Shown: positions 8,812 to 61,070 of the stretch, in pieces
Position numbering within the stretch: the first letter of the stretch is position 1
How the letters are laid out: every line of letters starts with the position of its first letter
Origin: Deltaproteobacteria bacterium
Lineage (GTDB): Bacteria; Desulfobacterota; Dissulfuribacteria; Dissulfuribacterales; QOAL01
Length of the DNA stretch: 64,000 nt
Assembly (NCBI GenBank): GCA_026986785.1
Contig: JALSNW010000025.1
Span: 27,014-91,013 of the forward strand
Direction: 5' to 3'
Notes under the pieces: model-generated
Database searches by the model: none
Seen by the model: only the letters and a program-made list of their open reading frames with translations
What the model was told of the DNA's origin: nothing
Made by a program: the position numbers and the translations under genes

Positions 8812-8842
8812 AATTTTGACAAGTCATAACCCTTATCGAGGA

Positions 8843-19303: not shown

Positions 19304-19319
19304 GGGCATGTCCTTTGCT
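19304..19319 (+). promoter_or_regulatory. sigma-54 (-24/-12) promoter candidate GGGCATgtcctTTGCT upstream of flgF
   Basis: GG and GC elements have the canonical spacing. Consensus is TGGCAC-N5-TTGCW. The site lies 27 nt upstream of ATG 19346. Confidence 0.5.
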
Positions 19320-19345
19320 ATCCAAATGGCAGGAGGACATGTTTG

Positions 19346-20101: not shown

Positions 20102-20120
20102 ATCAAGGAGGAGTTGAGAT

Positions 20121-20900
20121 ATGAGAGCACTTTGGACAGGCGCATCTGGTATGAACAGTATGCAGTTCAACCTGGATGTGATCTCGAATAACTTGGCAAA
20201 CAGCAAAACCACGGCCTTCAAGAGGAGCCGGGCCGATTTTGAGGATCTCATATATCAGACCCTCAGGATGCCAGGTGCGGAAAATGGAGATGGTACAGAG
20301 GTGCCTACTGGTATGCAAATCGGTCTGGGTTCCAGGCCATCTTCTGTCCAGAAGATCTTTACCCAGGGAGATTATCAAACAACGGGTAATGAACTGGACT
20401 GGGCCATAGAGGGCAGGGGTTTTTTCAAGATATTGAGTAATGGGGAGGATTATTACACCAGGGACGGCTCCTTCAAGCTGGACCGTGACGGTTACATTGT
20501 AAATTCCAATGGAGACAGGCTGCAACCTGAATTCGCCGTACCCCAGGGGACAGTAAAGATCACCATTGATTCGTATGGCATGGTCACTGCCTCGGATCAG
20601 GCTGGCAATCCCCTGGCGACTCAGCAGTTGACCATAACTGATTTCCCCAATCCTGCTGGGCTCATAAGCATTGGCAGAAACCTGTTTCGTCAGAGTGAGG
20701 CCTCTGGGGATCCCATAGAGGGAAATCCTGGTACAGACAGTTTTGGCACCATTGCCCAGGGCTTCTTGGAGCAATCCAACGTGGACGTGGTGTTGGAGAT
20801 GGTGGATATGATCGTTACCCAGAGGGCCTATGAGCTCAACTCAAAGGCGGTACAGACGGCGGATGAGATGATGGGTATCGCCAACAACCTCAAACGATAA
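20121..20900 (+). CDS. flgG: flagellar distal rod protein FlgG
   Basis: N-terminus MRALWTGASGMNSMQFNLDVISNNLANSKTTAFK. C-terminus GFLEQSNVDVVLEMVDMIVTQRAYE. Confidence 0.95.
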   Translation: MRALWTGASGMNSMQFNLDVISNNLANSKTTAFKRSRADFEDLIYQTLRMPGAENGDGTEVPTGMQIGLGSRPSSVQKIFTQGDYQTTGNELDWAIEGRGFFKILSNGEDYYTRDGSFKLDRDGYIVNSNGDRLQPEFAVPQGTVKITIDSYGMVTASDQAGNPLATQQLTITDFPNPAGLISIGRNLFRQSEASGDPIEGNPGTDSFGTIAQGFLEQSNVDVVLEMVDMIVTQRAYELNSKAVQTADEMMGIANNLKR

Positions 20901-20904
20901 CCTG

Positions 20905-21690
20905 ATGCATTACGAGGACAGGCAGATGAAGACGGGAATGAAGGATATGACCATTGATATGGCCGCTTTTTTGACTGCTATTTTATGGATTGGTCTTTTC
21001 TTGAATATCTTTTCGTATACAGATGCGTGGGGCCAAGAGGCAACCATGCAGCTCATGGATACAGAGGCCTTGGCTGCCAAGTACGTTGCATACCTGAAAT
21101 CTCATTCTTCCTGGAAACCTGACGAGATGGAGATCCAAAATGTCCGCATCAATCCTCGGACAATATGGCTTCCAAAGGGGAAGGTTTCTTATTCCATCCA
21201 GGAGTCTGCTGGCGGTGCTCTTCTCGGCAGGGTCTCTTCATTGGTTACTATCATGGTAGATGGAAAGCCTGTCCGGCGTGCCAGGGCCTGTGCCACAATT
21301 GAGGTGTACAAGTCGGTCTTGTGTGCTGCCCAGGGACTTAGGCGGGGTCAGATCATCTCTGAAAGAGACCTGACAAGGGCCACTATGCCCCTTAGCAAAC
21401 TGAAGACGGGTTTTTATCAAAGGCCGGGAGATGTTATCGGTATGGCTGCAAGACGTTCACTGAGGCCGGGCCAGGCGATAACTGCAGACAGCCTGATGAG
21501 ACCGGCAGTTGTGAAACGGGGCAGCAGGGTGATGATCGTGGCCCAGTCTCCGGCAATTATCGTGAAGGTCCCTGGCCAGGTCCAGGAGAAGGGGGCTGTG
21601 GGGGATTTCGTGAGGGTTATGAACCTTGGTAGCCACAGGGTAGTCATTGCCCGTGTAGAAGATAGAAATACCGTAAGGGTCAATTTTTAG
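20905..21690 (+). CDS. flgA: flagellar P-ring assembly chaperone FlgA
   Basis: SAF-like C-terminal region (PGQAITADSLMRPAVVKRGSRVMIV...GDFVRVMNLGSHRVV). The exact start is uncertain. Confidence 0.85.
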   Translation: MHYEDRQMKTGMKDMTIDMAAFLTAILWIGLFLNIFSYTDAWGQEATMQLMDTEALAAKYVAYLKSHSSWKPDEMEIQNVRINPRTIWLPKGKVSYSIQESAGGALLGRVSSLVTIMVDGKPVRRARACATIEVYKSVLCAAQGLRRGQIISERDLTRATMPLSKLKTGFYQRPGDVIGMAARRSLRPGQAITADSLMRPAVVKRGSRVMIVAQSPAIIVKVPGQVQEKGAVGDFVRVMNLGSHRVVIARVEDRNTVRVNF

Positions 21691-21702
21691 GCGGAGACAA
21701 AA

Positions 21703-22416
21703 ATGAAGATGAAAGCCTGCTTCCACCTCACATTCTTTGTTGCCATCATACTGTTGTCTGGTTGCGCTATAAATACCCCGCCACCGATAAACCAGAGCAA
21801 CGATGCATCTTTTGCCCCTCTCCCCGTTGTACCTGCAAGGCCCCATGAGGGCTCCCTTTTTGATCCGGACTCCGAGACAAGTCTGGTTGCAGACTTCAGG
21901 GCCAAAAGGGTGGGAGATGTACTAACTGTGAGGATAGAAGAGGACCTGAAGGGGTCAAAAGACGTGAAGACAAAGACGGACAGAAAATCAGAGGTCAATA
22001 TAGGCCTTACAGGGCTGCTTGGTTGGGAGTTCAACAAAAGGGTCTCTCCCCGGTATCCAAATGAAAAGGTCAGCGCAGCCAATGCAATAGGGGGTATGGG
22101 TACTAACAAGTTTGATGGCCAGGGCCAGACCTCGAGGGATACGAGCCTATCGGGTACGATTTCAGTAAGGGTAGTAAAACAACTGCCCGGCGGGAATCTT
22201 TTGATTCGTGGGAGCAGGGAGATAAGTATAAACAGTGAAACACAGTATGTGATTCTTACTGGCATCGTAAGACCTGCAGACATCGAGCCAGGCAATGTGG
22301 TCTCATCCACCAGGATCGCAGATGCCCGAATAAGTTATACTGGTGGTGGGACATTGAGCGAGGTGCAGCGACCAGGTTGGCTGGGGAGATTGATGGGTAT
22401 CATCGCACCTTTTTAG
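21703..22416 (+). CDS. flgH: flagellar L-ring lipoprotein FlgH
   Basis: Lipobox LLSGC, and the conserved DFRAKRVGDVLTV...ITGIVRP..I segment. Confidence 0.9.
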   Translation: MKMKACFHLTFFVAIILLSGCAINTPPPINQSNDASFAPLPVVPARPHEGSLFDPDSETSLVADFRAKRVGDVLTVRIEEDLKGSKDVKTKTDRKSEVNIGLTGLLGWEFNKRVSPRYPNEKVSAANAIGGMGTNKFDGQGQTSRDTSLSGTISVRVVKQLPGGNLLIRGSREISINSETQYVILTGIVRPADIEPGNVVSSTRIADARISYTGGGTLSEVQRPGWLGRLMGIIAPF

Positions 22417-22470
22417 ATCCCTTTTCTCTATTCGCCAGGGGGCTTGTCCTGGGAAAATCAATGTATTGGG

Positions 22471-22492
22471 CAGGCAAAATGCCATTTGCCTG
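22471..22492. repeat. 8-bp perfect inverted repeat CAGGCAAA-N6-TTTGCCTG between flgH and flgI
   Basis: Read from the sequence. It lies 48 nt upstream of the sigma-54 candidate. No U-tract follows, so it is not a typical terminator. Confidence 0.3.
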
Positions 22493-22539
22493 GAAAAGGC
22501 GTTCGACAGCGCCTCCATGGACTTTTTTGTTTCTGGTAC

Positions 22540-22555
22540 TGGCCCGGTCTTTGCA
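22540..22555 (+). promoter_or_regulatory. sigma-54 promoter candidate TGGCCCggtctTTGCA upstream of flgI
   Basis: One mismatch to TGGCAC-N5-TTGCA, with correct spacing. It lies 48 nt upstream of ATG 22603. Confidence 0.55.
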
Positions 22556-22602
22556 CATTTTAATTCTCAAAGGACAGGAGAAGATTAAAACTCTCTGATA
22601 TC

Positions 22603-23760
22603 ATGAAGAATATGAATGAGATAGGAGTTTCAAAGCAGGATTTGGCAGTGGGTAGAATAGTCCGCTACTCGGCTTTATTTGCCGTCTTGATCATGGTCCT
22701 GGAGGCGTCCTTTGCAAGTGCAGCCCGACTAAAGGATATTGCATACGTACAAGGGCTTCGGGAAAATCAGTTGGTGGGCTATGGCATAGTTGTGGGCCTG
22801 AATGGTACTGGAGATGGTACCCAGGCCAAGTTCACCATACAGTCCATAGCCAACCTCATGGAGAGAATGGGCATAATAAATGTAGACCCGAAGCAGGTGA
22901 AGGTGAAAAATGTTGCTGGGGTGATGGTGACGGCAAAGTTGCCGCCATTGGCAAAGATTGGTCAAAAAATTGACGTAGTGGTCTCTTCTATAGGAGACGC
23001 AAAGAGCCTCTTGGGGGGGACCCTGCTGTTGACACCTCTCAAGGGTATAAATGGGGAGATATATGCAGTGGCCCAAGGGCCACTTAGTGTTGGTGGATAT
23101 TCAGCAGGTGGAGCTGGAGGCAGTGTACAGAAAAACCATCCCACTGCCGGCAGGATACCAAATGGAGCCACTGTGGAAAGAGAGATACCAGTGAATCTCT
23201 TGGCCAAACGGGAGCTCAAGATAAACCTTTACCAGCCAGACTTCACCACGGTGTCACGTCTCGTAGATGCCATAAATGATACCCTTGGGGCAGAGTTTGC
23301 AAAACCAGTTGATGCAGAGACTGTCAAGCTCAAGATCCCCCCAGAATATGAAGGCTCTCCAGTTGCCCTCATGGCAGCCATAGAAAATGTGGAGATCTCT
23401 CCCGATACCACGGCAAAGGTCATACTGGATGAGCGTACTGGGACTGTGGTCATGGGTAACCAGGTGCGGATATCGACTGTGGCAGTGGCACATGGCAATC
23501 TCAGTATCCAGATCAAGGAGAACCCCCAGGTATCCCAACCTGCTCCTTTTGCACGGAGAGGCCAGACAGTTGTGACGCCTGGAACAGAGGTGAAGGTCAA
23601 CGAAGGGGGAGGAAAACTCGTTCTATTGGATCATGGGGCCACAATAGGGCAGTTGGTGGCAGCACTCAATGCAGTAGGTGTTACACCAAGGGATCTCATA
23701 GCAATAATGCAGTCAATCAAGGCATCCGGGGCGCTCCAGGCAGATCTCCAGGTGATATGA
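22603..23760 (+). CDS. flgI: flagellar P-ring protein FlgI
   Basis: RLKDIAYVQGLRENQLVGYGIVVGLNGTGD, with conservation along the full length. Confidence 0.95.
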   Translation: MKNMNEIGVSKQDLAVGRIVRYSALFAVLIMVLEASFASAARLKDIAYVQGLRENQLVGYGIVVGLNGTGDGTQAKFTIQSIANLMERMGIINVDPKQVKVKNVAGVMVTAKLPPLAKIGQKIDVVVSSIGDAKSLLGGTLLLTPLKGINGEIYAVAQGPLSVGGYSAGGAGGSVQKNHPTAGRIPNGATVEREIPVNLLAKRELKINLYQPDFTTVSRLVDAINDTLGAEFAKPVDAETVKLKIPPEYEGSPVALMAAIENVEISPDTTAKVILDERTGTVVMGNQVRISTVAVAHGNLSIQIKENPQVSQPAPFARRGQTVVTPGTEVKVNEGGGKLVLLDHGATIGQLVAALNAVGVTPRDLIAIMQSIKASGALQADLQVI

Positions 23761-24086
23761 CAGGTATGGGGTGGACAATGGACTTGAGAACCAATGAAAC
23801 AGGCATGAGGCTCAAATGGTTGGCAGAAGATGCCCTCGGGCAGAAGCAGGAAGTGAGGTCGGGAAAGCTGAGGGAGGCATGTGATGGCTTTGAGGAGATT
23901 TTCGTCAACATGATGCTAAAGGAGATGAGGAAGGGCATTCCCAAGGCAGGCCTTTTCCCCGACAGCATCCAAAAGGATATTTATACAGACCTTTTTGATC
24001 AACAGGTGGCCAAGGAGATAGCTACAGGAAAGGGCATAGGGATTTCAGATATGCTTTATGAAAGGCTGTCGGAAAGGCAGAAATGA
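23757..24086 (+). CDS. rod-binding protein (FlgJ N-terminal domain only, no muramidase domain)
   Basis: 109 aa. EACDGFEEIFVNMMLKEMRK...LFDQQVAKEIATGKGIGISDMLYERL. Confidence 0.8.
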   Translation: MTGMGWTMDLRTNETGMRLKWLAEDALGQKQEVRSGKLREACDGFEEIFVNMMLKEMRKGIPKAGLFPDSIQKDIYTDLFDQQVAKEIATGKGIGISDMLYERLSERQK

Positions 24087-24763
24087 GAAGCAGTTTACTT
24101 GAAAAGGATGAGAACATGAAACATAGCAGCCAACAAATATTGAAAAAGGATGCCTTCCATGTCCAAAGTACGTTATCCAAAGAGGCCGTAGATCTCATGG
24201 ATAGTATCCTGGCCTCCTGGAGACAACTCGATGAACTCGTACAGGTGGAATGGAAAGCTGTCCTGAAAGGGGAGTTCATAAAGCTCTATCGTTTTGCCAG
24301 GGCTAAAGAGATCCTTTCCGATCATATAGAGGCCTATGAAAAGAGGCTGAGGGACATTTTCTGTGACATGCTATGTGCCCTTTCTGGGAAAGCACCCAAG
24401 GGCAGTATTACTGCCGCAGTTCTCCAGGCATTGCCTTTTGAAGAGAGAAGGTACCTTATGGACTTCCATGCTGAAAGGGCGAATCTGAAGATACGGGTGG
24501 CTTTTACGAATAGGCGTACAATGATGTGGGTGCGGGAACGTATGGATTTTACCAATGAACTCGTGGACATCCTCACTGGCAAGAAACTCAGGAAATCGGC
24601 GACATACTGTCCACCAGGCAGGTCTTTCATCTATAGAAAGAGTCCTGGGTTCGAGATACTGAACAAGGGGACAGCAGATACAGGGAACAACACCAAAACC
24701 ATTGGTACTGGTCATGGTTCCAAGGCTGTCAGTGCCTATTCAGACATGCAGACGCGGCGATAA
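24083..24763 (+). CDS. hypothetical flagellar-cluster protein, FlgN-like chaperone candidate
   Basis: 226 aa, helical, in the position normally occupied by flgN before flgK. The similarity is pattern-level only. Confidence 0.35.
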   Translation: MRSSLLEKDENMKHSSQQILKKDAFHVQSTLSKEAVDLMDSILASWRQLDELVQVEWKAVLKGEFIKLYRFARAKEILSDHIEAYEKRLRDIFCDMLCALSGKAPKGSITAAVLQALPFEERRYLMDFHAERANLKIRVAFTNRRTMMWVRERMDFTNELVDILTGKKLRKSATYCPPGRSFIYRKSPGFEILNKGTADTGNNTKTIGTGHGSKAVSAYSDMQTRR

Positions 24764-24777
24764 ACGGAGGAGATGAC

Positions 24778-27573
24778 ATGGCAGGGCTGACCAATCTCTT
24801 GAATATCGGCAAGGTGGGGCTTCTGGCCCAGCAGACGAGTCTTCAGACCATTGGGCACAATATCTCCAATGTGAACACGCCCGGGTTTTCCAGGCAAAAC
24901 GTGGAACTTTCTGCCAATGACCCAACTCCCACTTTCATAGGTCCCATTGGTAATGGAGTGGAGGCAACGGATATAGTTAGGGCATACGACAGGTTTATTA
25001 CCCAGACCCTTTTCGGAAAGCAGTCCAACATGAGCGGACTCGAGACCAGGGTCTCGGGCATGCAGATTATTGAAGGGGCCCTGAACGAGGTGGAAGAAAA
25101 CGGTATAAATGGCCTGTTGGAAGACTTCTGGAACGGGTGGGACGACCTTTCAAACAACGCAGAGGGCATGGCAGAGCGGACCACCCTTCTTCAACGTGGA
25201 GCCGCCTTGGCTGATGCCTTGAAAGACAAATACAACACACTTTTGAAACTCTCCAAGGATATAGACCTCAATATAGAATCATCAATAAAGGACATTAACC
25301 AGCTCTCCGGGCAGATAGCAGAGCTCAATGTCCAGATAGTCTCGGCAGAGGCCGGACACCATTCGGCCAATGATCTCAGAGACCAGAGAGACGAACTGGT
25401 CAGCCGATTGTCAAAGCTTGCAAACATACACTATTTTGAGACAGAGAGAGGCTCTTACACTGTGCTCATTGGCCAGGGCAGTCCATTGGTAGAAGACAAT
25501 GAATCCTGGAGCCTTGAGATGAGTGGTGGCAAGGTCAACTGGCTGGGAAGCAATGGCCAGAAATTCGAACTCACCACAAGAGACATAAGTGATGGCGAAC
25601 TTGGTGGTTGGCTGGACATAAAAAAGAGGTTAGAGCCTGCCGACCCCACCAAACTCGTTGGTTCCAGAGTCAATACCACCGGAGGTAATCCCATCAGGGA
25701 GTCGACCAGGTGGGATGCCATCGATGGTGTTTCTGTGACCGGGGATTTTACCATAGAGTTTTCCGGCACAGATCAGGATGGTAATCCAGTTGGGCCTGTT
25801 ACATTTCAATATACAAGCCCTCCAAACGAATCAAATGCAACCGTAGGGGACTTCCTCTCGGCTATCGAGGGTGCATTTCCTGACGTGGACGCAACAATCA
25901 CAGATGATGGCCGTATCAAGATAGAAGATACCAACCCTGGCAATGAGCCCATCTCTTTCCAGATAGAAAGTATAAGTGGTGGAATAACAGGTCTCAATCT
26001 GGGAAAATTTGATGGTTCCTATCCCCTGAGCTACATCGAAAAGTTGAACAAGATAGGCAAGGAGCTCATAAAATACGTAAATGGTCAGCACAGTCAAGGT
26101 GCAGGCCTGGTTCCACTTCAGGAGACCACTGCAGCCAATCGGGTGATTTCAGATAGTACTGCCATAAGCAGTCGTGCCTCCGGGCTGGAGTTTTCCGATC
26201 AGGTCCAGACAGGTTATTTCGAGATATATCTATACGACGCAAGTGGCAACCCTATAGACGCTGATGGTTCCACCATAGTGAACGAGCCCTACAGGATAGA
26301 CGTGACAGAGGGTGATACTACGCTGGCAGACATCAGAGATGCAATAAATGCGGACATACCCGACTTGAATGCCAGGATAGTGGACAACAGGCTTGTGATA
26401 GGTCTCGATGGTCCACCGGCCAGTGCCACGGGTTTTGCCTTTGGCAGGGATACTTCGGGTGCCCTGACCGCATTGGGCATGAATGCATTTTTTACCGGGG
26501 ACGATGCCTCAACTATTGGCATCAATACCAGGCTCCTGGAAGATCCAAGGCTGGTGGCAGCGGCCCAGGTAGAAAATGCTGGTGCCTATTCTGCCTTGAG
26601 CCACAGGGCCGTAATGGACGAAAACCGGGCCCTCGATGCCATGATCTCCAATGGCACTATCCATGTAGAGGTGATGGACACTAATGGCACTGTGACAGAT
26701 CAGCTCGATATAACAGTTGATAGAGACAATACCTCCCTGGCTGATATCTTGGGAAAGATAAGCGATATGGACGGTGTGCGAGCGTGGGTGGAAAAAGGGC
26801 TCGTACATGTGGAGACAGAGCAAAAGGGTTATACTGTATCCATAGACGACAGCGCAGGTGGTACGGATACAGGGCTCTTGGAGTTTCTGGACATGTCAGG
26901 TGGACCTGCTGCACGTCTCGATGGAGGGCTCAAGGTAGACAGGAGTTTTGACGTATTGAGTAGTTATGATACAGGCATAACCACTGGAACCAGCTTTACC
27001 ATAGACATCTTGGACGCAGACGGGAACATAATAGGGGGGCCTCCAAGCATTACAGTAGACGTGGATGCCGGGGACAACCTTTCGGACATAGCGGCAGCCA
27101 TAGATGCCAATGACAATATCTCTGCCCAGGTCGTAAATGGCAAGCTCCGTATAAGTGTTGAAGGCGCTGGAGACAGGTTCTACGTGAGGGATGATTCCCC
27201 AGGGCTTTTTTCCTTCCTGGACATGTCTGTCCCGAAAGGTGGGCAGCTTTCACCGGCAAACAATCTCAATGCCTTGGCCTTGAGGGATCTCAACAGAAAA
27301 CCAGTGGCAGATCTGGATGATGCAACCTTGAGTCAGTCCTATCAAGGCTTGGTTGGTACTGTGGGTATCCATACCAGGACATTCAATCTCGATCTCGATT
27401 TTGCAAAGGGCGCAGTAAGTGATCTTCAGGCAAAGAGGGAGAATGTATCAGGGGTCTCCATAGATGAAGAGCTCTCCAATCTGCTCAAGTTTCAGCATGC
27501 CTATACAGCAGCGGCCAAGCTGATAAAGGCTGCTGACGAGATGTTTTTGTCACTTCTAAATGCCAAGCAGTAG
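24778..27573 (+). CDS. flgK: flagellar hook-associated protein 1 FlgK (unusually long, 931 aa)
   Basis: N-terminus GLLAQQTSLQTIGHNISNVNTPGFSRQ. C-terminus GVSIDEELSNLLKFQHAYTAAAKLI. Confidence 0.9.
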   Translation: MAGLTNLLNIGKVGLLAQQTSLQTIGHNISNVNTPGFSRQNVELSANDPTPTFIGPIGNGVEATDIVRAYDRFITQTLFGKQSNMSGLETRVSGMQIIEGALNEVEENGINGLLEDFWNGWDDLSNNAEGMAERTTLLQRGAALADALKDKYNTLLKLSKDIDLNIESSIKDINQLSGQIAELNVQIVSAEAGHHSANDLRDQRDELVSRLSKLANIHYFETERGSYTVLIGQGSPLVEDNESWSLEMSGGKVNWLGSNGQKFELTTRDISDGELGGWLDIKKRLEPADPTKLVGSRVNTTGGNPIRESTRWDAIDGVSVTGDFTIEFSGTDQDGNPVGPVTFQYTSPPNESNATVGDFLSAIEGAFPDVDATITDDGRIKIEDTNPGNEPISFQIESISGGITGLNLGKFDGSYPLSYIEKLNKIGKELIKYVNGQHSQGAGLVPLQETTAANRVISDSTAISSRASGLEFSDQVQTGYFEIYLYDASGNPIDADGSTIVNEPYRIDVTEGDTTLADIRDAINADIPDLNARIVDNRLVIGLDGPPASATGFAFGRDTSGALTALGMNAFFTGDDASTIGINTRLLEDPRLVAAAQVENAGAYSALSHRAVMDENRALDAMISNGTIHVEVMDTNGTVTDQLDITVDRDNTSLADILGKISDMDGVRAWVEKGLVHVETEQKGYTVSIDDSAGGTDTGLLEFLDMSGGPAARLDGGLKVDRSFDVLSSYDTGITTGTSFTIDILDADGNIIGGPPSITVDVDAGDNLSDIAAAIDANDNISAQVVNGKLRISVEGAGDRFYVRDDSPGLFSFLDMSVPKGGQLSPANNLNALALRDLNRKPVADLDDATLSQSYQGLVGTVGIHTRTFNLDLDFAKGAVSDLQAKRENVSGVSIDEELSNLLKFQHAYTAAAKLIKAADEMFLSLLNAKQ

Positions 27574-27615
27574 TTTTTAGGGGCTTGGAACAGATAGGAT
27601 ACAGGGGATAGTGAT

Positions 27616-28512
27616 ATGAGAGTGACCATGAACACCATGTATAGCCAGATAAATTTAGATCTTTCCAGGCTGACTGAACGGCTGGCCGGCTATACGGATA
27701 GCATTTCTTCAGGGAAGCATTATCAGGTTCCATCTGATGCCCCTGTCAAGCTGACCCATGCGCTGGGTTTAAGGGATTCCCTGGCAGAGACCGAACAGTA
27801 CAAGAGGAACATATCCTATGGCAAGGGCTGGGTGCTCGCCACGGAGAATGTCCTTACGCATGTGACCGACAGGCTGACCCGGGCCAAGGAACTTGCCGTG
27901 GAAGGTGCGAATGATTCACAAAATGCCAGCACCAGAAAGGCTATTGCCCAGGAGGTCAAATCCATATTGGAAGAGGTCGTGAGCCTGGGAAATACGAGGC
28001 TTGGAGACAGGTATTTGTTGGCAGGTAGCAAGACTACAGGATATGGCTACAACGATAGGCCATTTGTCATGGACAATGATCAGAATGTATACTATCACGG
28101 CAACCAGGAAGACATTACCCTGGATGTCTCTGGTGGGAAAAAACAAAAGATCAATATAGATGGCAGGACAGGTCTGTTTGACAGTGGATCGTTCCATGCC
28201 CTCAAGGACCTGTACGACAGCCTGATGGCAAATAGTCAGCCAGATATAGAAAGTGCCATGGGGAAGCTGGACGACAGCATAGTTTACGTCAGCAACAAGA
28301 CTGCGGAGTTGGGGGCCATGGCCAACTCCCTGGATACCAAGGATGAAATGGCTGATTCCATGCAGGTTGTCAACAAGCAGGTACTGTCGGATGTAGAAGA
28401 TACGGACATGATCGAGGCCATAAATTCACTCAATGCCACCCAGACGGCTTATCAGGCAGCCCTGGGGGCAGCATCGAAGGTCATGCAGGTCACATTGGCA
28501 GATTATCTCTAA
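27616..28512 (+). CDS. flgL: flagellar hook-associated protein 3 FlgL
   Basis: Flagellin-like N and C termini (RVTMNTMYSQ...; INSLNATQTAYQAALGAASKVMQVTLADYL). Confidence 0.85.
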   Translation: MRVTMNTMYSQINLDLSRLTERLAGYTDSISSGKHYQVPSDAPVKLTHALGLRDSLAETEQYKRNISYGKGWVLATENVLTHVTDRLTRAKELAVEGANDSQNASTRKAIAQEVKSILEEVVSLGNTRLGDRYLLAGSKTTGYGYNDRPFVMDNDQNVYYHGNQEDITLDVSGGKKQKINIDGRTGLFDSGSFHALKDLYDSLMANSQPDIESAMGKLDDSIVYVSNKTAELGAMANSLDTKDEMADSMQVVNKQVLSDVEDTDMIEAINSLNATQTAYQAALGAASKVMQVTLADYL

Positions 28513-28550
28513 GACAGGCAAACTGGGCCAACAATGCCAGGGAGGGCGTA

Positions 28551-28781
28551 TTGCTGATATTTTCCAGGAAGATAGGAGAGAAGATACGGGTAGGAGACGA
28601 TATCGAGATCGTGGTACTTGAGATGAAAAAGGGGCAGGTGAGGCTGGGAATCAATGCCCCGAGAAACCTTTCCGTACACAGGGAAGAAGTGTACCAGAGG
28701 ATACTCGAGGAAAACAGGTTGGCAGCCGCCAGCGCCCTCGATACTGATGAAATCTTTGAAAAGATCTATAGAAAAGATTGA
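28551..28781 (+). CDS. csrA: carbon storage regulator CsrA (TTG start)
   Basis: LIFSRKIGEKIRVGDDIEIVVLEMKKGQVRLGINAPRNLSVHREEVY. SD GGGAGGG lies upstream. Confidence 0.95.
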   Translation: MLIFSRKIGEKIRVGDDIEIVVLEMKKGQVRLGINAPRNLSVHREEVYQRILEENRLAAASALDTDEIFEKIYRKD

Positions 28782-28836
28782 CCTCATACAAGGGTGCAGT
28801 ACAAGGACTTGAAATACGAAGAAAGAGAATAGGTAG

Positions 28837-29268
28837 ATGAAGGTCGAGACCAGCAGATTTGGTTCCATAGAAATAGACGATGATAAGGTGCTTACCTTTC
28901 CCAAGGGCATACTTGGCTTCCCGGAAGACAGGCGCTATGCCTTGTTGCCCCATGATGAGAAGTCTCCATTTTTTTGGCTTCAGAGCCTGGACAGCCCAGA
29001 GCTGGCCTTTGTGGTAATCAATCCGGCCCTCATACTCGAGGACTACAGTTTCGAGATCCCAACCGACATGGAAAGGGATCTGGACCTGAGGGAGCCGGGC
29101 CAGGCAGAAGTCTTGGTGCTGGTAAGTTTCAGACAGGGCAGTGATGGAAAACCATCGAGCCTTACGGCAAATCTCCTGGGTCCTTTGGTGATAAATGTGG
29201 AGAACAGGAAGGCAATGCAGGCAGTCTTAGATCCCAAAAGATATCCAGTGCGCTACGAATTCTCATAA
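28837..29268 (+). CDS. fliW: flagellar assembly factor FliW
   Basis: SRFGSIEIDDDKVLTFPKGILGFPE...FFWLQSLDSPELAFVVINP. Confidence 0.95.
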   Translation: MKVETSRFGSIEIDDDKVLTFPKGILGFPEDRRYALLPHDEKSPFFWLQSLDSPELAFVVINPALILEDYSFEIPTDMERDLDLREPGQAEVLVLVSFRQGSDGKPSSLTANLLGPLVINVENRKAMQAVLDPKRYPVRYEFS

Positions 29269-32849: not shown

Positions 32850-34109
32850 ATGGAACAACTTGAAATCAAGGGAGGTCATGCCCTCAAGGGCAGTGTCAGG
32901 ATCAGCGGTGCCAAGAACGCTGCTCTTCCCATGCTTGCTGCAACACTCTTGGCCCAAGGGATGTTTCGTCTTCGGGATGTGCCGTCCTTAGAAGACGTAA
33001 ATACCTTCATACGGCTCCTGGAAGAGCTTGGTTTTACCTTTGATGCAGGGGAAGACAATCAATTGGCCATAGACTCTTCAGGGCTGTCCAGCCATGAAGC
33101 CCCCTATGAGTTGGTGCGGATGATGAGGGCATCTGTCTTGGTGCTGGGGCCATTGGTGGCACGTCTTGGAAAGGCAAGGGTGGCCCTGCCAGGTGGATGT
33201 GCCATAGGTGCCAGACCCATAGATTTTCATCTCAAGGGCCTGGAACTCATGGGGGCGAAATTGACCCTCAAGGAAGGCTATGTAGATGCCAGGGCCAGGC
33301 GTCTTTCTGGTGCAAGGATCTATTTCGATATCCCCTCGGTCACTGCAACAGAAAATCTCATGATGGCGGCCTGTTTGGCAAATGGCAAGACCGTTCTGGA
33401 GAATGCCGCCAGGGAACCAGAGGTGGTTGCCCTGGGGCAGATGCTCCAGGAGATGGGGGCCAATATTAGAGGCCTTGGCACAGAGACTGTTGTCATCGAA
33501 GGGGTGAGGGAACTCAAGCCTGTGGATTGGAAGATCATCCCCGACAGGATAGAGGCAGGTACCTATCTCATGGCAGTTGGCGCAGCAGGTGGGCAACTGA
33601 TACTCGAAAACGTGGTGCCATCCCATCTCGAGGCCATAATAGGCAAACTCAGAGAGGCGGGATTGTCGATTGATGTATTGGATGAGACCACAGTCAAGGT
33701 CAGGAAACGGGGTAGGTTGAAGAGTGTGGATGTCAAGACCCTCCCCTATCCTGGCTTTCCAACGGATCTACAGGCACAGATCATGGTCCTCATGGCGAAT
33801 GCAGGGGGCCTGAGCGTGATAACAGAGACAATCTTTGAAAACCGTTTCATGCATGTGGCAGAGCTCAGGCGTCTTGGTGCCGATATAAGGGTAGAGGGCA
33901 GGAGTGCAATTGTCAGGGGGGTGCCTTCCTTGACTGGTGCACCTGTCATGGCAACGGATCTTCGGGCAAGTGCCTGTCTTGTCCTGGCAGGCCTGGCTGC
34001 AAAGGGTAAGACCACTGTTGCAGGCCTCAACCATCTGAATAGGGGCTATGAACGAATGGATGAGAAATTACGCGAAGCCGGTGCGAGAATAAGGTATGTC
34101 ACAGCCTAA
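32850..34109 (+). CDS. murA: UDP-N-acetylglucosamine 1-carboxyvinyltransferase MurA
   Basis: [14 protein letters not shown], and the active-site motif [13 protein letters not shown]. Confidence 0.95.
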
Positions 34110-35127
34110 CAAAGATGCCAACATAGGCGAGAAATACCCCAAGCTAATAGACAGCTTTGGAAGAAAGATCACCTACCTACGGCTTTCGGTTACAGATCGT
34201 TGTAATTTGCGCTGTTTCTATTGTATGCCCCAGGCGGATTTCAACTGGATGCCCTATGAAAACATTCTTCGTTTCGAGGAGATAATACAACTGGTTCGTG
34301 TGCTTGCATGCCAGGGAGTGAGGAAGATCCGGCTTACCGGAGGTGAGCCTTTGGTCAGGAAGGATGTGGTAAGATTGATGGGAGACATCTCTAATCTGGA
34401 GGGTGTAGAAGAGCTGTGTCTCACCACAAATGGAGTCGCCCTCGCTGAATTGGCAGAGGGGCTTTTTGCCATTGGCCTGAGGCATATCAATATCAGCCTT
34501 GATACCCTCAGGAGGGAGCGTTTTCAAGAGATTACGGGTAGGGATCTTTTTGACCGGGTGTGGTCAGGTATACAAAGGTGTATAGAATTGGGATTTTCTC
34601 CCATAAAGATCAATTTTGTAATGATCAAAGGGAAAAATGACGATGAGATAGCTGATTTCGCCCTTCTTGCAGCCAGATACCCAATAGAGGTCCGTTTTAT
34701 CGAATTTATGCCCATTGGACGAGGCTCAAATTGGGGCAGGGACTACTTTTTCTCATCTGACCAGGCCATAGAGCTGATAGAGAAGAGGGCAGGCAAATTG
34801 GTAGTCGAGCAGAGGAGACCTTTTTCAGGGCCTGCCGAGCTTTATTCTCTTAAGGGTGGAAAGGGTACCGTGGGTTTTATAAGTCCTCTCAGCCACAGAT
34901 TTTGTAGCGAATGCAATCGTCTAAGGATCACTGCCGATGGCAGGTTGCGTCTGTGCCTTTTTTCTGACAGAGAGATCCTCCTGAGACAGATGCTCAGAGA
35001 TGGCATAGGCCAAAAGGACTTGGCTCAATTTCTTGCAAAAGCAGTGATGAAAAAGCCAGCTCGGTACCTGGCCAAGGATTACGATGTCCCCCATTGTGAC
35101 AGGACGATGTCATCTATAGGGGGTTAA
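34096..35127 (+). CDS. moaA: GTP 3',8-cyclase MoaA (radical SAM)
   Basis: CNLRCFYCMP radical-SAM motif and C-terminal CSECNRLRITADGRLRLCLF. Overlaps murA by 14 nt. Confidence 0.9.
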   Translation: MSQPNKDANIGEKYPKLIDSFGRKITYLRLSVTDRCNLRCFYCMPQADFNWMPYENILRFEEIIQLVRVLACQGVRKIRLTGGEPLVRKDVVRLMGDISNLEGVEELCLTTNGVALAELAEGLFAIGLRHINISLDTLRRERFQEITGRDLFDRVWSGIQRCIELGFSPIKINFVMIKGKNDDEIADFALLAARYPIEVRFIEFMPIGRGSNWGRDYFFSSDQAIELIEKRAGKLVVEQRRPFSGPAELYSLKGGKGTVGFISPLSHRFCSECNRLRITADGRLRLCLFSDREILLRQMLRDGIGQKDLAQFLAKAVMKKPARYLAKDYDVPHCDRTMSSIGG

Positions 35128-35148
35128 ATAAAAAAGCCAGGAGGTATT

Positions 35149-35601
35149 ATGATCATCCTTGAAGATCTCCTTTATACAGAGGAGCATATTTGGGTAAAGC
35201 CTGACGATAGGCAGGAAAAGGCAGTGATAGGCATCACCGATTATGGTCAAGAGCGGGTAGGGGCGATAGCCTCTATAGACCTGCCAGAATCTGGAGACGA
35301 GTTTGTTGAGACCGATTGTTTTGCCACCTTGGAAAACTCTATAGGGGAGGTCACAGAGCTTTATTCTCCTGTCTCCGGTAGGGTGTTGACGGCAAATGAT
35401 CAACTCATAGACTCGCCCGAACTCATCAACGAGGACCCTTATGACGATGGCTGGCTAATGGTGATGGCCGTTGCCCAACCACAAGAGCTTGATGATCTCA
35501 TGAGTCCGGATGAATATGAAAAGTTCGTGGAAGAACTCAAGATAAAAGAGGAAGAGGAATTAGAAGATGAAGACGATGCCTTGGAGGTCATGGAAGAATG
35601 A
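35149..35601 (+). CDS. GcvH-like protein lacking the lipoyl-lysine, with polyacidic C-terminal tail
   Basis: YTEEHIWV...GITDYGQE...SPVSGRVLTANDQL...DPYDDGWL aligns to GcvH. The ESVK position reads ENSIG (35332-35346). Confidence 0.8.
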   Translation: MIILEDLLYTEEHIWVKPDDRQEKAVIGITDYGQERVGAIASIDLPESGDEFVETDCFATLENSIGEVTELYSPVSGRVLTANDQLIDSPELINEDPYDDGWLMVMAVAQPQELDDLMSPDEYEKFVEELKIKEEEELEDEDDALEVMEE

Positions 35602-36542
35602 GACCCAAGACCGCCTTCCTGTTCCCAGGCCAGGGCTCCCAATACGTTGGGATGGGTAAGGATGTACTCGAAAACCTTTCTGAAGGCAGGCAGTTGTTTC
35701 AGATAGCCGAGAAGGTGACGGGGGTCCCTGTGGCCGAGCTTTGTCTCGAAGGGCCACTGCCAGAGCTGACAAAGACAAGAAATCTCCAGCCCTGTCTCAC
35801 TGCTGTCGATATCCTCTCCTGTATGGCTGCAAGGCATGTTGGTCTCGATGCCCAGGCGGTGGCAGGACACAGCCTTGGAGAGTACCCGGCCCTGTGGGCA
35901 GCCGGAGTCGTCTCTACCGGGGACTGTTTTCGTCTGGTGAAAGAAAGAGGCAGGTTGATGGACGAGGCGGCAGTTGAAAACCCTGGGGCCATGGCCGCTA
36001 TCATTGGTATGGAGAGGGGTGACTTAGAGCAACTTGTCAAAGAGGTAGCTGCCCCAGGGGAGATACTTGCCCTCGCAAACCACAATTCCAGAAAACAGAT
36101 AGTTGTCACAGGTCACAAGGATGCAGTGCATAAGCTTTGTTCAATGGTCAAAAAAGCGGGAAAGAAGGCTATAGTCCTGAAGGTAGCAGGTGCATATCAT
36201 AGCCCCCTGATGCAGGAGGCATCCGATGTGTTTTCAAGAGTGCTCAAAGAAACAGGGTTCAAAAATGCCCAAATCCCTGTTTACAGCAATGTCACTGCAG
36301 AACCAGAGACAGACGCCGAAAGGTTCAAGGGGCTTATGAGTGAACAGATATGTTCACCCGTGAGGTGGTATGAGATTATAAACAACATGTACAGGGACGG
36401 AGTGCGTAATTTTATTGAATTGGGCCCCAAGAAGGTGTTGGCAAACCTTGCCAAGGCCTGCCTTGATGTGGATGATGCAATGTTTTTCAGTGCAGACTCC
36501 CTTGAAGACCTGAATAGTGTGAAAGAGGAGCTCCAGGGGTGA
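35598..36542 (+). CDS. fabD: malonyl-CoA:ACP transacylase FabD
   Basis: FLFPGQGSQYVGMG, and GHSLGEY with the active-site Ser. Confidence 0.95.
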   Translation: MRPKTAFLFPGQGSQYVGMGKDVLENLSEGRQLFQIAEKVTGVPVAELCLEGPLPELTKTRNLQPCLTAVDILSCMAARHVGLDAQAVAGHSLGEYPALWAAGVVSTGDCFRLVKERGRLMDEAAVENPGAMAAIIGMERGDLEQLVKEVAAPGEILALANHNSRKQIVVTGHKDAVHKLCSMVKKAGKKAIVLKVAGAYHSPLMQEASDVFSRVLKETGFKNAQIPVYSNVTAEPETDAERFKGLMSEQICSPVRWYEIINNMYRDGVRNFIELGPKKVLANLAKACLDVDDAMFFSADSLEDLNSVKEELQG

Positions 36543-36561
36543 ATATGAGGATGGAACAGTG

Positions 36562-36765
36562 ATGTATTTTTTGGGAAGACAGAAAGAGGCTACAGGGCTG
36601 AAATGCAAGCAATGTGGTCATGAGCTCGAACTTTGTAGGCGTTGAAGAAATATTGCCCTGCGGTGCCAGGGCTGTGGCAGTGTCTTTTCCATTAGGGAAT
36701 ACTCCAGCGAGTTGACGGATGAGTTGGCAGAACTTCTTGCCTTTTCGCGGGTGGACAGGATATAG
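36562..36765 (+). CDS. candidate small zinc-ribbon selenoprotein (67 codons, in-frame TGA at 36643-36645 read as Sec)
   Basis: Not in the ORF track. ATG is preceded by GAGGA. A single frame reads CKQC...CRR[TGA]...CQGC and then an acidic helix. A hairpin follows the TGA. Confidence 0.45.
36655..36672 (+). promoter_or_regulatory. SECIS-like hairpin GCCCTG-cggtgc-CAGGGC
   Basis: Perfect 6-bp stem starting 9 nt after the TGA. The loop contains GGU. Confidence 0.4.
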
Positions 36766-36806
36766 GGTGGCTGGAGAAATGGCTGCCCACGGTCAGTTTG
36801 TTTTTT

Positions 36807-38354
36807 TCAGGCAAAATTTAGCCTGGGTATCTTTATATCAGCCCTGTCGAGATCCCTGTTCAAGGAGACGAATTCCTTTATCCTGTCCCTTAATTCGTCT
36901 ATCCCCTGACCGCTTTTAGCCGATACCCGAACCGCCGAGATCTTGGATATCCTTTTTCGGGCCCTTTCGTCCAAAAGGTCCATCTTGTTAAGGACAGTTA
37001 TCCTGGGCACCTCTGAAAGGTCCAGTTCCCTCAATATCTCCTCTGTGGCGGCAATCTCTTCCCGAATGAAGGGGCTGGAGGCATCCAGTACATGGATGAA
37101 TGCAGCAGAGTCTTCCAACTCCTCGAGAGTGGCCTTGAAAGCCGTTTTTATATCAGGAGGCATATTGGTTATAAAACCGACTGTGTCAGAAAGGAGCACC
37201 TTTTGATCGTCGAGGTAGAGGGCCTTGGTGGATGGATCGAGGGTGGCGAAAAGTTCATCCCTTACCAGCACGTTGCTTTTCGTGAGTCTGTTCAGAAGGG
37301 TGGATTTCCCAGCATTGGTATATCCTATTATGGAAAATACTGGCATACGATCCCTCGTCCTTTTTTTTCTTATCTGGCTGCGCTGTTTCTCAAGGCCTTT
37401 CAATGCCTTTTCCAAGGAGGTGATACGTTGCTTTATCCTTCTTCTGTCCACCTCGAGTTTCGTCTCTCCAGGGCCTTTACCTCCTATGCCACCCATGAGT
37501 CTGGACATGGCAGTGCCTTTACCCACCAATCTCGGCAGGGTATATCTCAGTTGTGCCAGTTCCACCTGGATCTTTCCACCTCTCGTCTTTGCGTGCCGTG
37601 CAAAGATGTCCAGTATGAGTTGGGTACGGTCGATGACCTTAAGGTCCATCAGCTTGGCAATATTGTTGGCCTGTCTGGGGCTTAGGTTCTGGTCGAAGAC
37701 TATCATGGACACACCCAGGTAAAGACCGGATACCAGGATCTGTTTGAGTTTACCCTTGCCTATCAGGTGTGCAGGGTTGAATTTGGCTACCCTTTGATAG
37801 ATCTTGTCCACTACCTGTATATTGGCTGTCTCTGCCAGTCTCTGGAGCTCATCGAGGCATCTGTTGGCATATGTCTCCCCGTGAGGCCCCGCGTGGACGA
37901 GTATGGCCCGTTCTTCTGCCCCTTTGAGGGCCTTTAGGTGGCATACTCTCTCGATTTCTTGTTCAAGATCGCGTATGAATATGTCAAATCTTGGAGGCAG
38001 GTCCACAACCTGTCTGAAGGTCTCTATCTGCCATTTTTCACCATGGGACCCAGGTGGCAATAGATGGGCCAGGTGGAATCTCCTGGGGAGATGGTCTTTT
38101 ACCTCGATTACCATCATGGCATCCAACCTCAAAAGGGCAAGGTCTGTGAGGTCCTCACTTGTTATGCCTTTGTTTTCACCAAGGCTCGTTCGGATACATC
38201 TCAGGCCCTTCAGCCTGAATGCCCCTCTTCTGAAGTTCTCGAGGTCAGGGATGAAAATGCCATGCCTGTCCCCCACTATGACATGGGTGATGATGCCCTT
38301 TCTGTTTATGAGCAGGGCTGTCTGGCAAGATATGGTACTGGAGATCTCTGCCAT
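36807..38354 (-). CDS. hflX: GTPase HflX with ~140-aa N-terminal extension
   Basis: VIDRTQLILDIFARHAKTRGGKIQVELAQLRY. G1 motif GYTNAGKST. G3 motif DTVGF. G4 motif NKMD. Confidence 0.9.
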   Translation of the reverse strand: MAEISSTISCQTALLINRKGIITHVIVGDRHGIFIPDLENFRRGAFRLKGLRCIRTSLGENKGITSEDLTDLALLRLDAMMVIEVKDHLPRRFHLAHLLPPGSHGEKWQIETFRQVVDLPPRFDIFIRDLEQEIERVCHLKALKGAEERAILVHAGPHGETYANRCLDELQRLAETANIQVVDKIYQRVAKFNPAHLIGKGKLKQILVSGLYLGVSMIVFDQNLSPRQANNIAKLMDLKVIDRTQLILDIFARHAKTRGGKIQVELAQLRYTLPRLVGKGTAMSRLMGGIGGKGPGETKLEVDRRRIKQRITSLEKALKGLEKQRSQIRKKRTRDRMPVFSIIGYTNAGKSTLLNRLTKSNVLVRDELFATLDPSTKALYLDDQKVLLSDTVGFITNMPPDIKTAFKATLEELEDSAAFIHVLDASSPFIREEIAATEEILRELDLSEVPRITVLNKMDLLDERARKRISKISAVRVSAKSGQGIDELRDRIKEFVSLNRDLDRADIKIPRLNFA

Positions 38355-57513: not shown

Positions 57514-57515
57514 AG

Positions 57516-58085: not shown

Positions 58086-58149
58086 GGAGCAAGCCTTTTT
58101 GTCTCCAGATCCCATGTTGACTGTATGCAAAAACATACGGCTATCTGGT

Positions 58150-59523: not shown

Positions 59524-59537
59524 TAAGGAGGCCCTTT

Positions 59538-61069: not shown

Positions 61070-61070
61070 A

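What the first reader, a model, noticed from the sequence alone, without database searches (positions are those of the whole stretch)
36562..36765. Untracked small zinc-ribbon ORF with an in-frame TGA completing a CxxU motif and a SECIS-like hairpin: candidate selenoprotein
No meaningful track ORF explains the 264 bp between fabD and the hflX 3' end. Reading from ATG 36562 (GAGGA upstream) gives MYFLGRQKEATGLKCKQCGHELELCRR-TGA-RNIALRCQGCGSVFSIREYSSELTDELAELLAFSRVDRI-TAG in one frame. The part after the TGA has no ATG, GTG or TTG before codon 51. It nevertheless stays open and looks protein-like, with a second CxxC knuckle and an acidic helix. The TGA (36643-36645) falls in C-R-R-U, a CxxU redox motif, between CKQC and CQGC. 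Nine nt after the TGA lies a perfect hairpin, GCCCTG-CGGTGC-CAGGGC (36655-36672), with GGU in the loop. That spacing and loop signature are expected for bacterial SECIS elements. I recall that annotation resources list a family of small dual-CxxC (seleno)proteins, but I cannot verify membership here.
Basis: partly seen in the sequence, partly recalled or inferred. Interest (0 to 1): 0.7.

Follow-up and report, generated by a model that had tools for sequence, protein, structure and literature searches.

The report
Unannotated small selenoprotein gene (known family)
The 204-base gap between fabD and hflX holds a real 67-residue gene whose internal TGA very probably encodes selenocysteine. It belongs to a small-protein family already catalogued since 2007, so it is a missed annotation and not a new kind of gene.

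Summary
The ORF runs from ATG 36562 to TAG 36765. It has an in-frame TGA at 36643-36645 and a perfect 6-bp hairpin at 36655-36672.

The read-through peptide matches NCBIfam NF041197.2, "dual CXXC motif small (seleno)protein". The score is 58.5 bits against a cutoff of 40, over the full 53-position profile. This family is "OS_HP3" of Zhang and Gladyshev 2007 and is listed in selenoproteome reviews from 2022 and 2026.

I collected nine further distinct homologues. In eight of them the gene follows fabD.
- All ten sequences have TGA at the same codon. None has Cys, and the 53-codon core has no indels.
- Both halves are under purifying selection (pN/pS 0.26 upstream, 0.35 downstream).
- The terminal stop codon varies while the internal TGA never does.
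- The hairpin is the RNAalifold consensus, with a GGUG loop.
- One hairpin pair switches C-G to U-A, and synonymous sites in the hairpin arms are frozen.
- The hairpin meets the published bacterial SECIS model, with spacing at its lower edge.

Not tested: selA, selB, selC and selD in this genome (none seen in the roughly 73 kb available), selenium incorporation, and function. This is a new member of a known kind and of modest interest.

The parts
36547..36551 (+). Shine-Dalgarno-like GAGGA, 10 nt upstream of the start codon. It lies 5 nt after the fabD stop codon (36540-36542).
   Evidence: Read directly from the sequence. Homologues have GGAGG or AGGA-like motifs in the same place and start 11-50 nt after fabD.
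36562..36765 (+). Complete selenoprotein gene: 67 codons plus TAG. The product is MYFLGRQKEATGLKCKQCGHELELCRRURNIALRCQGCGSVFSIREYSSELTDELAELLAFSRVDRI. It is a member of NF041197 / OS_HP3.
   Evidence: all 10 homologues hit NF041197.2. (pN/pS 0.26 upstream and 0.35 downstream of the TGA). The ATG-TAT-TTT start is conserved in relatives.
36604..36615 (+). First CxxC knuckle (C15-K-Q-C18).
   Evidence: C15 and C18 are invariant in 10 of 10 homologues.
36634..36645 (+). C25-R-R-U28 motif, with the Sec codon TGA at 36643-36645.
   Evidence: C25, the TGA and the following R29 are invariant in 10 of 10. Positions 26 and 27 are R/T/V and R/K. The 2026 review lists the family motif as RxU.
36655..36672 (+). 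SECIS hairpin: a 6-bp stem GCCCUG/CAGGGC with loop CGGUGC, overlapping codons A32-G37. In 8 of the 10 sequences (all but the window and L102) an extra A-U pair closes a GGUG tetraloop.
   Evidence: RNAalifold consensus. Pair counts are 91.4% paired against 26-56% for slid registers, with CG to UA at pair 16:27. Synonymous sites are frozen: GCC x10, YTG x10, MGG x10, GGC x9. The hairpin alone is -9.5 kcal/mol.
36664..36675 (+). Second CxxC knuckle (C35-Q-G-C38). Its first codons form the loop and 3' arm of the SECIS hairpin.
   Evidence: C35, C38 and G39 are invariant in 10 of 10.
36780..36806 (+). Terminator-like stem (TGGCTGCCCACGGTCA) followed by GTTTGTTTTTTT, 15 nt after the stop codon. It is a possible end of the gcvH-fabD-small gene transcript.
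   Evidence: Consensus scan only. Not tested further.

Best explanation
Positions 36562-36765 encode a 67-residue selenoprotein of the 'dual CXXC motif small (seleno)protein' family (NCBIfam NF041197; OS_HP3 of Zhang and Gladyshev 2007).

The gene sits 20 nt downstream of fabD on the same strand and is probably co-transcribed with it. During translation, the UGA at 36643-36645 is not read as a stop. The hairpin 9 nt downstream (36655-36672, GGU in the apical loop) acts as a bacterial SECIS element. It recruits SelB-GTP-Sec-tRNA(Sec), so selenocysteine is inserted at residue 28 and translation continues to TAG 36763-36765.

The product has two invariant CxxC knuckles (C15/C18 and C35/C38), spaced like a zinc ribbon. 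Between them, six residues from each knuckle, lies an invariant C25-x-x-U28 pair. An acidic helix and a conserved R-V-D-R-I C-terminus follow.

Shown here:
- family membership
- conservation of the TGA
- coding constraint on both sides of the TGA
- a conserved hairpin with RNA-level constraint

Inferred:
- SelB-dependent Sec insertion
- metal binding by the four knuckle cysteines
- a redox or metal-ligand role for the C-x-x-U pair

The cellular function of the family is unknown.
For: Family membership: NF041197.2 scores 58.5 bits (cutoff 40), E = 5.4e-16, with the full profile matched. The part after the TGA alone gives 36.8 bits. All 10 homologues match.

Literature: the family is already catalogued as a selenoprotein (PMC1976440; PMC9312934; PMC13188914).

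Homologues: ten distinct sequences, 52-85% identical in DNA, all have TGA at codon 28 with no indel across 53 codons. The terminal stop varies (TAG x4, TGA x4, TAA x2).

Selection: pN/pS is 0.26 upstream and 0.35 downstream of the TGA.

Hairpin:
- It is the RNAalifold consensus.
- 91.4% of cells are paired, against 26-56% in slid controls.
- There is one CG to UA covarying pair and one UA to UG pair.
- Synonymous pS is 0.40 in the hairpin codons against 0.76-0.92 elsewhere.
- Third-position entropy is 0 at A32, L33 and R34, while other invariant Arg, Gly and Leu codons vary freely.

bSECIS model (PMC13188914 Fig. 2 legend): loop of 4-6 nt, stem of 6-7 bp, G in the first two loop positions, and energy of -9.5 kcal/mol or lower in 9 of the 10 sequences (L102: -6.3 for a register-shifted hairpin).

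Sequencing error excluded: the same sequence occurs in four independent assemblies.

Standard code: TGA is an ordinary stop in this organism, because fabD ends in TGA.
Against: - No selA, selB, selD or tRNA-Sec was found in the window or in the 9.3 kb fetched beyond its end. Their presence in the genome is therefore untested.
- No Cys-containing homologue was found.
- Covariation rests on essentially one evolutionary event in one clade.
- The loop GGUG and the 5' arm also encode invariant residues (A-L-R-C), so part of their conservation is protein-level.
- In the window itself, the minimum-free-energy fold of the 40-48 nt after the UGA is an alternative hairpin. It scores -12.5 kcal/mol against -10.9 with the conserved hairpin enforced.
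- The spacing from UGA to the apical loop is 15-16 nt, at or just under the model's lower limit of 16.
- There is no experimental evidence of Se incorporation for any family member that I could find.
Confidence: 0.9

Rival explanations
1. The UGA is recoded, but by SECIS-independent read-through with a standard amino acid (for example Trp, Cys or Arg from a near-cognate tRNA). The protein would then be full length but contain no selenium.
For: Coding constraint on both sides of the UGA shows only that translation continues, not which residue is inserted. Sec machinery was not seen in the available sequence.
Against: The UGA is invariant in 10 lineages, while the synonymous sites around it are near saturation. 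If any standard residue worked, a sense codon would be expected to replace the UGA in at least some lineages. A conserved hairpin with a GGU loop and frozen synonymous sites sits where a SECIS is expected. The family is curated as a selenoprotein.
Confidence: 0.05
2. The UGA is a true stop. Only a 27-residue peptide is made. The conserved downstream sequence would serve another purpose, such as an RNA structure or terminator shared by the convergent fabD and hflX transcripts.
For: Gene callers treat the UGA as a stop and call nothing here. The minus-strand scan even flags the hairpin as terminator-like.
Against: The downstream 39 codons keep their frame without indels in 10 sequences and end at a shared stop position. 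Variation is concentrated at third codon positions (32 of 33 variable, against 18 of 33 at second positions), and pN/pS is 0.35. The downstream part alone scores 36.8 bits against the protein family model. In L132, L135, L136, L138 and L140 the downstream neighbour is not hflX, yet the sequence is retained.
Confidence: 0.03
3. It is a chance ORF in an intergenic spacer, and not a gene at all.
For: A 67-codon frame with one stop is not statistically remarkable by itself. 1.3% of TGAs in the window have a comparable hairpin downstream, and the z-score of the fold is -1.03.
Against: It matches a curated family at E = 5.4e-16. It is conserved in lineages whose FabD is only 57-70% identical. Purifying selection is evident.
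Confidence: 0.01

Closest known systems
NCBIfam NF041197 'dual CXXC motif small (seleno)protein' = hypothetical selenoprotein OS_HP3 (Zhang and Gladyshev 2007, Olavius algarvensis delta-proteobacterial symbionts; also reported in Desulfosarcina widdelii PP31)
   Same: The score is above the curated cutoff over the full profile. It shares the two CxxC motifs flanking a Sec in an R-x-U context, the small size, the predicted SECIS directly after the UGA and the Desulfobacterota-like host lineage. The 2007 paper also reported no Cys homologue in its data set.
   Different: Nothing essential differs. This copy is simply not annotated in any of the four assemblies that carry it. Two points were not found stated in the papers read: the conserved position directly after gcvH-fabD, and the invariant C25 that makes the motif C-x-[RK]-U-R.
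Bacterial SECIS consensus (bSECISearch model; archetype E. coli fdhF/fdnG)
   Same: A hairpin lies immediately downstream of the UGA, inside the coding region. It has a small apical loop with G followed by G/U in its first positions, a 6-7 bp upper stem and an energy below -7.5 kcal/mol.
   Different: The UGA-to-loop spacing is 15-16 nt, at the lower limit of the 16-37 nt range. Rfam returned no relevant match at this site. SelB binding was not tested.
HVO_2753 / DUF1610 zinc-finger micro-protein of Haloferax volcanii (PDB 6YDH)
   Same: It is a protein of about 60 residues with consecutive CxxC motifs. Three of them align with CxxC-CxxU-CxxC here with nearly the same spacing. It is a reminder that not every CxxC pair binds zinc (PMC11241148).
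   Different: The similarity is not significant (E = 0.046-0.077; NF041909 scores 13 bits against a cutoff of 80). HVO_2753 is archaeal, has four motifs, has no Sec and lacks the acidic C-terminal helix. It is an analogy, not a shared family.
Generic zinc-ribbon domains (Pfam Zn_ribbon_6, FmdB/TIGR02605, RNA polymerase subunit P/Rpb12, aIF2-beta)
   Same: Two CxxC knuckles lie about 16-20 residues apart.
   Different: All scores are below the family thresholds. None of these carries a Sec or a third Cys pair between the knuckles.

Membership tests
NCBIfam NF041197 dual CXXC motif small (seleno)protein (OS_HP3) | HMM score at or above the curated cutoff (40 bits) over the whole profile | tested here: met
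   58.5 bits, E = 5.4e-16, residues 15-67 matched to profile 1-53 of 53, with U written as C. All nine homologues also match, best E = 2.1e-16.
NCBIfam NF041197 dual CXXC motif small (seleno)protein (OS_HP3) | Two CxxC motifs flanking the Sec position | tested here: met
   C15xxC18 and C35xxC38 are invariant in 10 of 10.
NCBIfam NF041197 dual CXXC motif small (seleno)protein (OS_HP3) | In-frame UGA (Sec) in the R-x-U context listed for the family | tested here: met
   The window has C-R-R-U-R. TGA is invariant at codon 28 in 10 of 10. The RxU motif is listed in PMC13188914. The Sec column of the NCBIfam seed alignment could not be inspected directly.
NCBIfam NF041197 dual CXXC motif small (seleno)protein (OS_HP3) | Protein-coding conservation continuing beyond the UGA | tested here: met
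   pN/pS is 0.35 downstream, with no indels and a shared stop position.
Bacterial selenoprotein gene in general | SECIS with apical loop of 3-9 nt and upper stem of 4-16 bp | tested here: met
   The window has a 6-nt loop and a 6-bp stem. 8 of the 10 sequences have a 4-nt loop and a 7-bp stem. Criteria are from PMC13188914.
Bacterial selenoprotein gene in general | [quoted passage not shown] | tested here: met
   The loop is CGGUGC in the window and GGUG in 8 of the 10 sequences. GGU is invariant in 10 of 10.
Bacterial selenoprotein gene in general | 16-37 nt between the UGA and the apical loop | tested here: inconclusive
   15 nt lie between the UGA and the 6-nt loop in the window, and 16 nt in homologues with the 7-bp stem. 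This is at the lower boundary, and how the published model counts the spacing is not specified in the text I read.
Bacterial selenoprotein gene in general | Hairpin free energy of -7.5 kcal/mol or lower | tested here: met
   -9.5 kcal/mol for the hairpin alone in the window and -9.7 to -12.1 in eight homologues. L102 uses a register-shifted variant, -6.3 alone and -19.9 with the lower stem.
Bacterial selenoprotein gene in general | Hairpin conserved with covariation or RNA-level constraint | tested here: met
   One CG to UA pair (3 sequences, one clade) and one UA to UG pair. 91.4% of cells are paired against at most 56% in slid controls. Third-position entropy is zero at A32, L33 and R34, and pS is 0.40 against 0.76-0.92 elsewhere. 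The covariation evidence alone is thin.
Bacterial selenoprotein gene in general | selA, selB, selC (tRNA-Sec) and selD present in the genome | not testable with these tools
   None were found in the 64-kb window or in the 9.3 kb fetched beyond its end.
Bacterial selenoprotein gene in general | Cys-containing homologues aligned with the Sec | tested here: not met
   No Cys form was found among 10 homologues or in the protein searches. The three other genome hits are unrelated zinc-ribbon proteins. The searches had limited reach. This criterion is a discovery heuristic and not a requirement, and the 2007 paper also lists 0 Cys homologues.
Bacterial selenoprotein gene in general | Selenium actually incorporated | not testable with these tools
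   This needs 75Se labelling or mass spectrometry.
HVO_2753 family zinc finger protein (NF041909 / DUF1610) | HMM score above the cutoff (80 bits) | tested here: not met
   13 bits, E = 0.074. PDB 6YDH gives E = 0.046-0.077.
FmdB family zinc ribbon (TIGR02605) / Pfam Zn_ribbon_6 | HMM score above the cutoff | tested here: not met
   13.7 bits against 31.3, and 20.2 bits against 25.

The most novel reading that the evidence does not exclude
In this family the evenly spaced C-x2-C-x6-C-x2-U-x6-C-x2-C array may form a single metal centre in which selenocysteine is an obligate ligand, rather than a zinc ribbon plus a separate redox pair. That would explain why no Cys form was found. The family's conserved position directly after gcvH-fabD in at least nine lineages might then reflect a functional link to acyl or lipoyl carrier metabolism. 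Neither idea is in the literature I read.
Probability: 0.12. Interest if true: 0.5.

Novelty: new member of a known kind. Interest (0 to 1): 0.25.

Why it matters
In practice, this is a genuine gene that automatic gene calling misses in every assembly examined, because the UGA splits it into pieces too short to call. One relative is recorded only as a 37-residue fragment. Recognising it corrects the annotation and adds ten sequences to a sparsely sampled selenoprotein family of unknown function.

The data give a clean example of a bacterial SECIS superimposed on a zinc-knuckle coding sequence, with measurable suppression of synonymous change. They also offer two leads on function: conserved synteny with gcvH-fabD, and an invariant C-x-[RK]-U-R motif. 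The finding does not change what is known about selenoprotein biology.

Tried and rejected
- **Word-indexed protein search** with the read-through peptide found nothing. With a 3-sequence profile it found only the fragment P0001.
- **Exhaustive HMMER search:** The 39-residue post-UGA part found only P0001 and an unrelated 509-residue repeat protein.
- **Viral-contig scan** found no relative.
- **Genome-contig scan** used automatic patterns that were too narrow. It returned one true relative (identical to L002) and three unrelated larger zinc-ribbon proteins.
It yielded only one new member, L102.
- **Synteny walking** was the route that worked. I took FabD homologues, fetched their contigs and read the uncalled gap after fabD.
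- **Rfam** gave nothing at gathering thresholds or at permissive E-values.
- **Sec machinery:** the search of the window and of 9.3 kb beyond its end found nothing. One flank look-up found no record.
- **Other selenoprotein genes in the window:** a scan for same-frame TGA-split ORFs was too noisy to use.
- **Rejected readings:** chance ORF, true stop with a 27-residue product, and sequencing error.

Full report
**1. The observation**

Translating 36562-36768 gives MYFLGRQKEATGLKCKQCGHELELCRR*RNIALRCQGCGSVFSIREYSSELTDELAELLAFSRVDRI*.

- fabD (35598-36542, +) ends in TGA, and hflX (36807-38354, -) ends at 36807. The gap is 264 bp with no ORF of note.
- GAGGA lies at 36547-36551, 10 nt before ATG 36562.
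- The in-frame TGA is at 36643-36645.
- Nine nucleotides later, GCCCTG/CGGTGC/CAGGGC (36655-36672) forms a perfect 6-bp hairpin with GGT in the loop.
- The first in-frame ATG, GTG or TTG after the TGA is at codon 51.

These features alone are not statistically compelling. The fold of 36640-36700 has a z-score of -1.03. In this window, 1.3% of all TGA triplets are followed by a comparable hairpin. In the window's own sequence, the minimum-free-energy fold is a different, non-conserved hairpin.

The TGA is not an assembly error. The same 207 nt are identical in four independent assemblies of the same species: NCBI GCA_054023605.1, ENA ERZ27262668, and Logan SRR33214772 and SRR8439172. These differ from the window by 1-12 SNPs elsewhere. 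None of the four has a gene called between fabD and hflX.

**2. What it is**

With U written as C, the read-through peptide matches NCBIfam NF041197.2, "dual CXXC motif small (seleno)protein". The E-value is 5.4e-16 and the score is 58.5 bits against a curated cutoff of 40. Residues 15-67 cover all 53 profile positions. The part after the TGA alone gives 36.8 bits. Pfam offers only sub-threshold zinc-ribbon matches.

The family is the "hypothetical protein OS_HP3" discovered in the Olavius algarvensis symbiont metagenome by Zhang and Gladyshev in 2007. They reported two Sec-containing members, no Cys homologue and a predicted SECIS (PMC1976440). It is listed in selenoproteome reviews of 2022 (PMC9312934) and 2026 (PMC13188914, motif RxU, linked to NF041197). 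It was also noted as the one known selenoprotein that deep-Sep missed in Desulfosarcina widdelii (PMC12013277).

**3. Homologues**

Protein databases hold almost nothing for this family, because the UGA truncates the gene calls. The single hit, P0001, is a 37-residue "protein" that a gene caller started at an internal GTG just after the UGA. Reading its contigs (L001, L002) shows a complete homologue with TGA at the same codon. A degenerate DNA pattern scan of metagenomes added L102.

The productive route was synteny. FabD homologues 57-70% identical to the window's sit in the same murA-moaA-gcvH-fabD order. In seven of the eight lineages examined, the uncalled gap after fabD holds the same small ORF. 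These loci are L130, L132, L134/L135, L136, L138, L140 and L141; L139 lacks it. L102 also has a fabD C-terminus upstream. In L001 a HepT/MNT toxin-antitoxin pair sits upstream instead, but the downstream genes match those of L138 and L140.

This gives ten distinct sequences, 52-85% identical at DNA level. All ten match NF041197.2.

**4. Evidence that translation continues through the UGA**

- All ten sequences have TGA at codon 28, and none has a Cys or any other sense codon there.
- The 53-codon core aligns without a single indel, and all end at the same position.
- The terminal stop varies (TAG x4, TGA x4, TAA x2), whereas the internal TGA never varies.
- Nei-Gojobori estimates give pN/pS of 0.26 for codons 15-27 and 0.35 for codons 29-67 outside the hairpin. 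Synonymous differences there are near saturation (pS 0.92 and 0.76).
- Invariant residues are C15, C18, C25, U28, R29, A32, L33, R34, C35, C38, G39, Y47, L59, R63, D65 and R66.

The organism uses the standard code, because fabD itself ends in TGA.

**5. The hairpin**

In 8 of the 10 sequences it is extended by an A-U pair that closes a GGUG tetraloop, with a weaker lower stem.

Pair counting gives 91.4% of cells paired, against 26-56% when the 3' partners are slid by 1-3 columns. One pair switches C-G to U-A in three sequences. These form one clade, so this is probably a single event. Another pair goes from U-A to U-G through a Gln-to-Arg codon change. L102 replaces Q-G with R-L and uses a register-shifted stem with a GGU triloop.

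The strongest RNA-level signal is at synonymous sites:
- Ala32 is GCC in 10 of 10.
- Leu33 is YTG in 10 of 10.
- Arg34 is MGG in 10 of 10.
- Gly37 is GGC in 9 of 9.
- Other invariant Arg, Gly and Leu codons (R29, R27, G39, L59) use three to five different codons.
- pS in the hairpin codons is 0.40, against 0.76-0.92 elsewhere.

I compared the hairpin with the published bacterial SECIS model: loop 3-9 nt, stem 4-16 bp, G in the first two loop positions, 16-37 nt from UGA to the loop, and energy of -7.5 kcal/mol or lower (PMC13188914). It meets every criterion, but the spacing is 15-16 nt, at the lower boundary. Rfam has nothing matching.

**6. What could not be shown**

No selA, selB, selD or tRNA-Sec lies in the window or in the 9.3 kb fetched beyond its end. 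The rest of the genome was out of reach. No Cys homologue was found, and the three other genome-scan hits are unrelated zinc-ribbon proteins. No solved structure is significantly similar.

The best PDB match is the Haloferax micro-protein HVO_2753 (PDB 6YDH). Three of its consecutive CxxC motifs align with CxxC-CxxU-CxxC at E = 0.05-0.08. This is an analogy only. It is also a caution, because one of that protein's predicted zinc sites is metal-free (PMC11241148).

**7. Mechanism and function**

The most likely mechanism is SelB/tRNA-Sec-dependent decoding of UGA 36643-36645, directed by the SECIS hairpin at 36655-36672. This would give a 67-residue protein with a four-Cys knuckle pair and a C25-x-[RK]-U28-R29 motif midway between the knuckles. 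An acidic helix and an R-V-D-R-I tail follow.

Whether C25/U28 is a redox pair or contributes to a metal site is open. The tight linkage to fabD (11-50 nt downstream, same strand, nine lineages) suggests co-transcription. It does not by itself indicate a function.

**8. Verdict**

The gene is a previously uncalled member of a selenoprotein family that has been known since 2007 and has a curated NCBIfam model. It is a new member of a known kind, of modest interest.

Noticed in passing
window 32850-36765; L130, L132, L134-L136, L138, L140, L141 (about 1-3700 in each); L102: The gene order murA-moaA-gcvH-fabD-small selenoprotein is conserved across lineages whose FabD is only 57-70% identical. 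fabD here is detached from the usual fab cluster and overlaps the gcvH-like gene by 4 nt.
   Followed up: partly
L001 992-1105 (P0001); L130 3296-3598; window 36354-36608 (-): Gene callers mishandle this locus everywhere. One assembly records only a 37-residue post-UGA fragment started at an internal GTG. Another calls a 100-residue antisense ORF across the fabD end and the small gene. The window has a similar 84-codon antisense ORF.
   Followed up: yes
L001 174-816: A nucleotidyltransferase/HepT-like toxin-antitoxin pair sits immediately upstream of the small selenoprotein gene, where relatives (L138, L140) have fabD. This suggests an insertion or rearrangement at that point.
   Followed up: no
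L001 1188-1394 (-), L140 3725-3931 (-), L138 3744-3977 (-): A conserved 68-77-residue ORF with no Pfam hit lies on the opposite strand just downstream of the selenoprotein gene in one clade, followed by HisKA kinase-TatD-Maf genes.
   Followed up: no
window 36643-36690: In the window's own sequence, the minimum-free-energy fold after the UGA is an alternative, longer hairpin (AUAUUGCC...GGCAGUGU, -12.5 to -18.2 kcal/mol). It competes with the conserved SECIS hairpin (-10.9 when enforced). The alternative is not conserved in homologues.
   Followed up: partly
window 1021-14306 (-): This is a cluster related to c-di-GMP and exopolysaccharide. It holds a PMT_2-like glycosyltransferase, a GT2 synthase with an MshE-like c-di-GMP-binding N-terminus (2552-4441), a BcsB-like protein (5241-7346), a 1241-residue hybrid PAS histidine kinase with an Hpt domain (8843-12568), and a response-regulator GGDEF-EAL protein (12573-14306).
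   Followed up: no
window 19235-29268: This flagellar block includes flgF/flgG-like genes, FlgK, flagellin and a CsrA-FliW pair, followed by nrdR and secDF.
   Followed up: no
window 55405-64000 (-); L142: This is a type II secretion or type IV pilus-like cluster: secretin, PilN-like, T2SS-K, three pseudopilins, T2SS-F and T2SS-E. It continues beyond the window end.
   Followed up: no
L007-L125 (metagenome pattern scan): The CxxC-x6-CRx[U/C]-x6-CxxCG DNA pattern is swamped by low-complexity TGC/CGC-rich repeats in metagenome contigs.
   Followed up: yes
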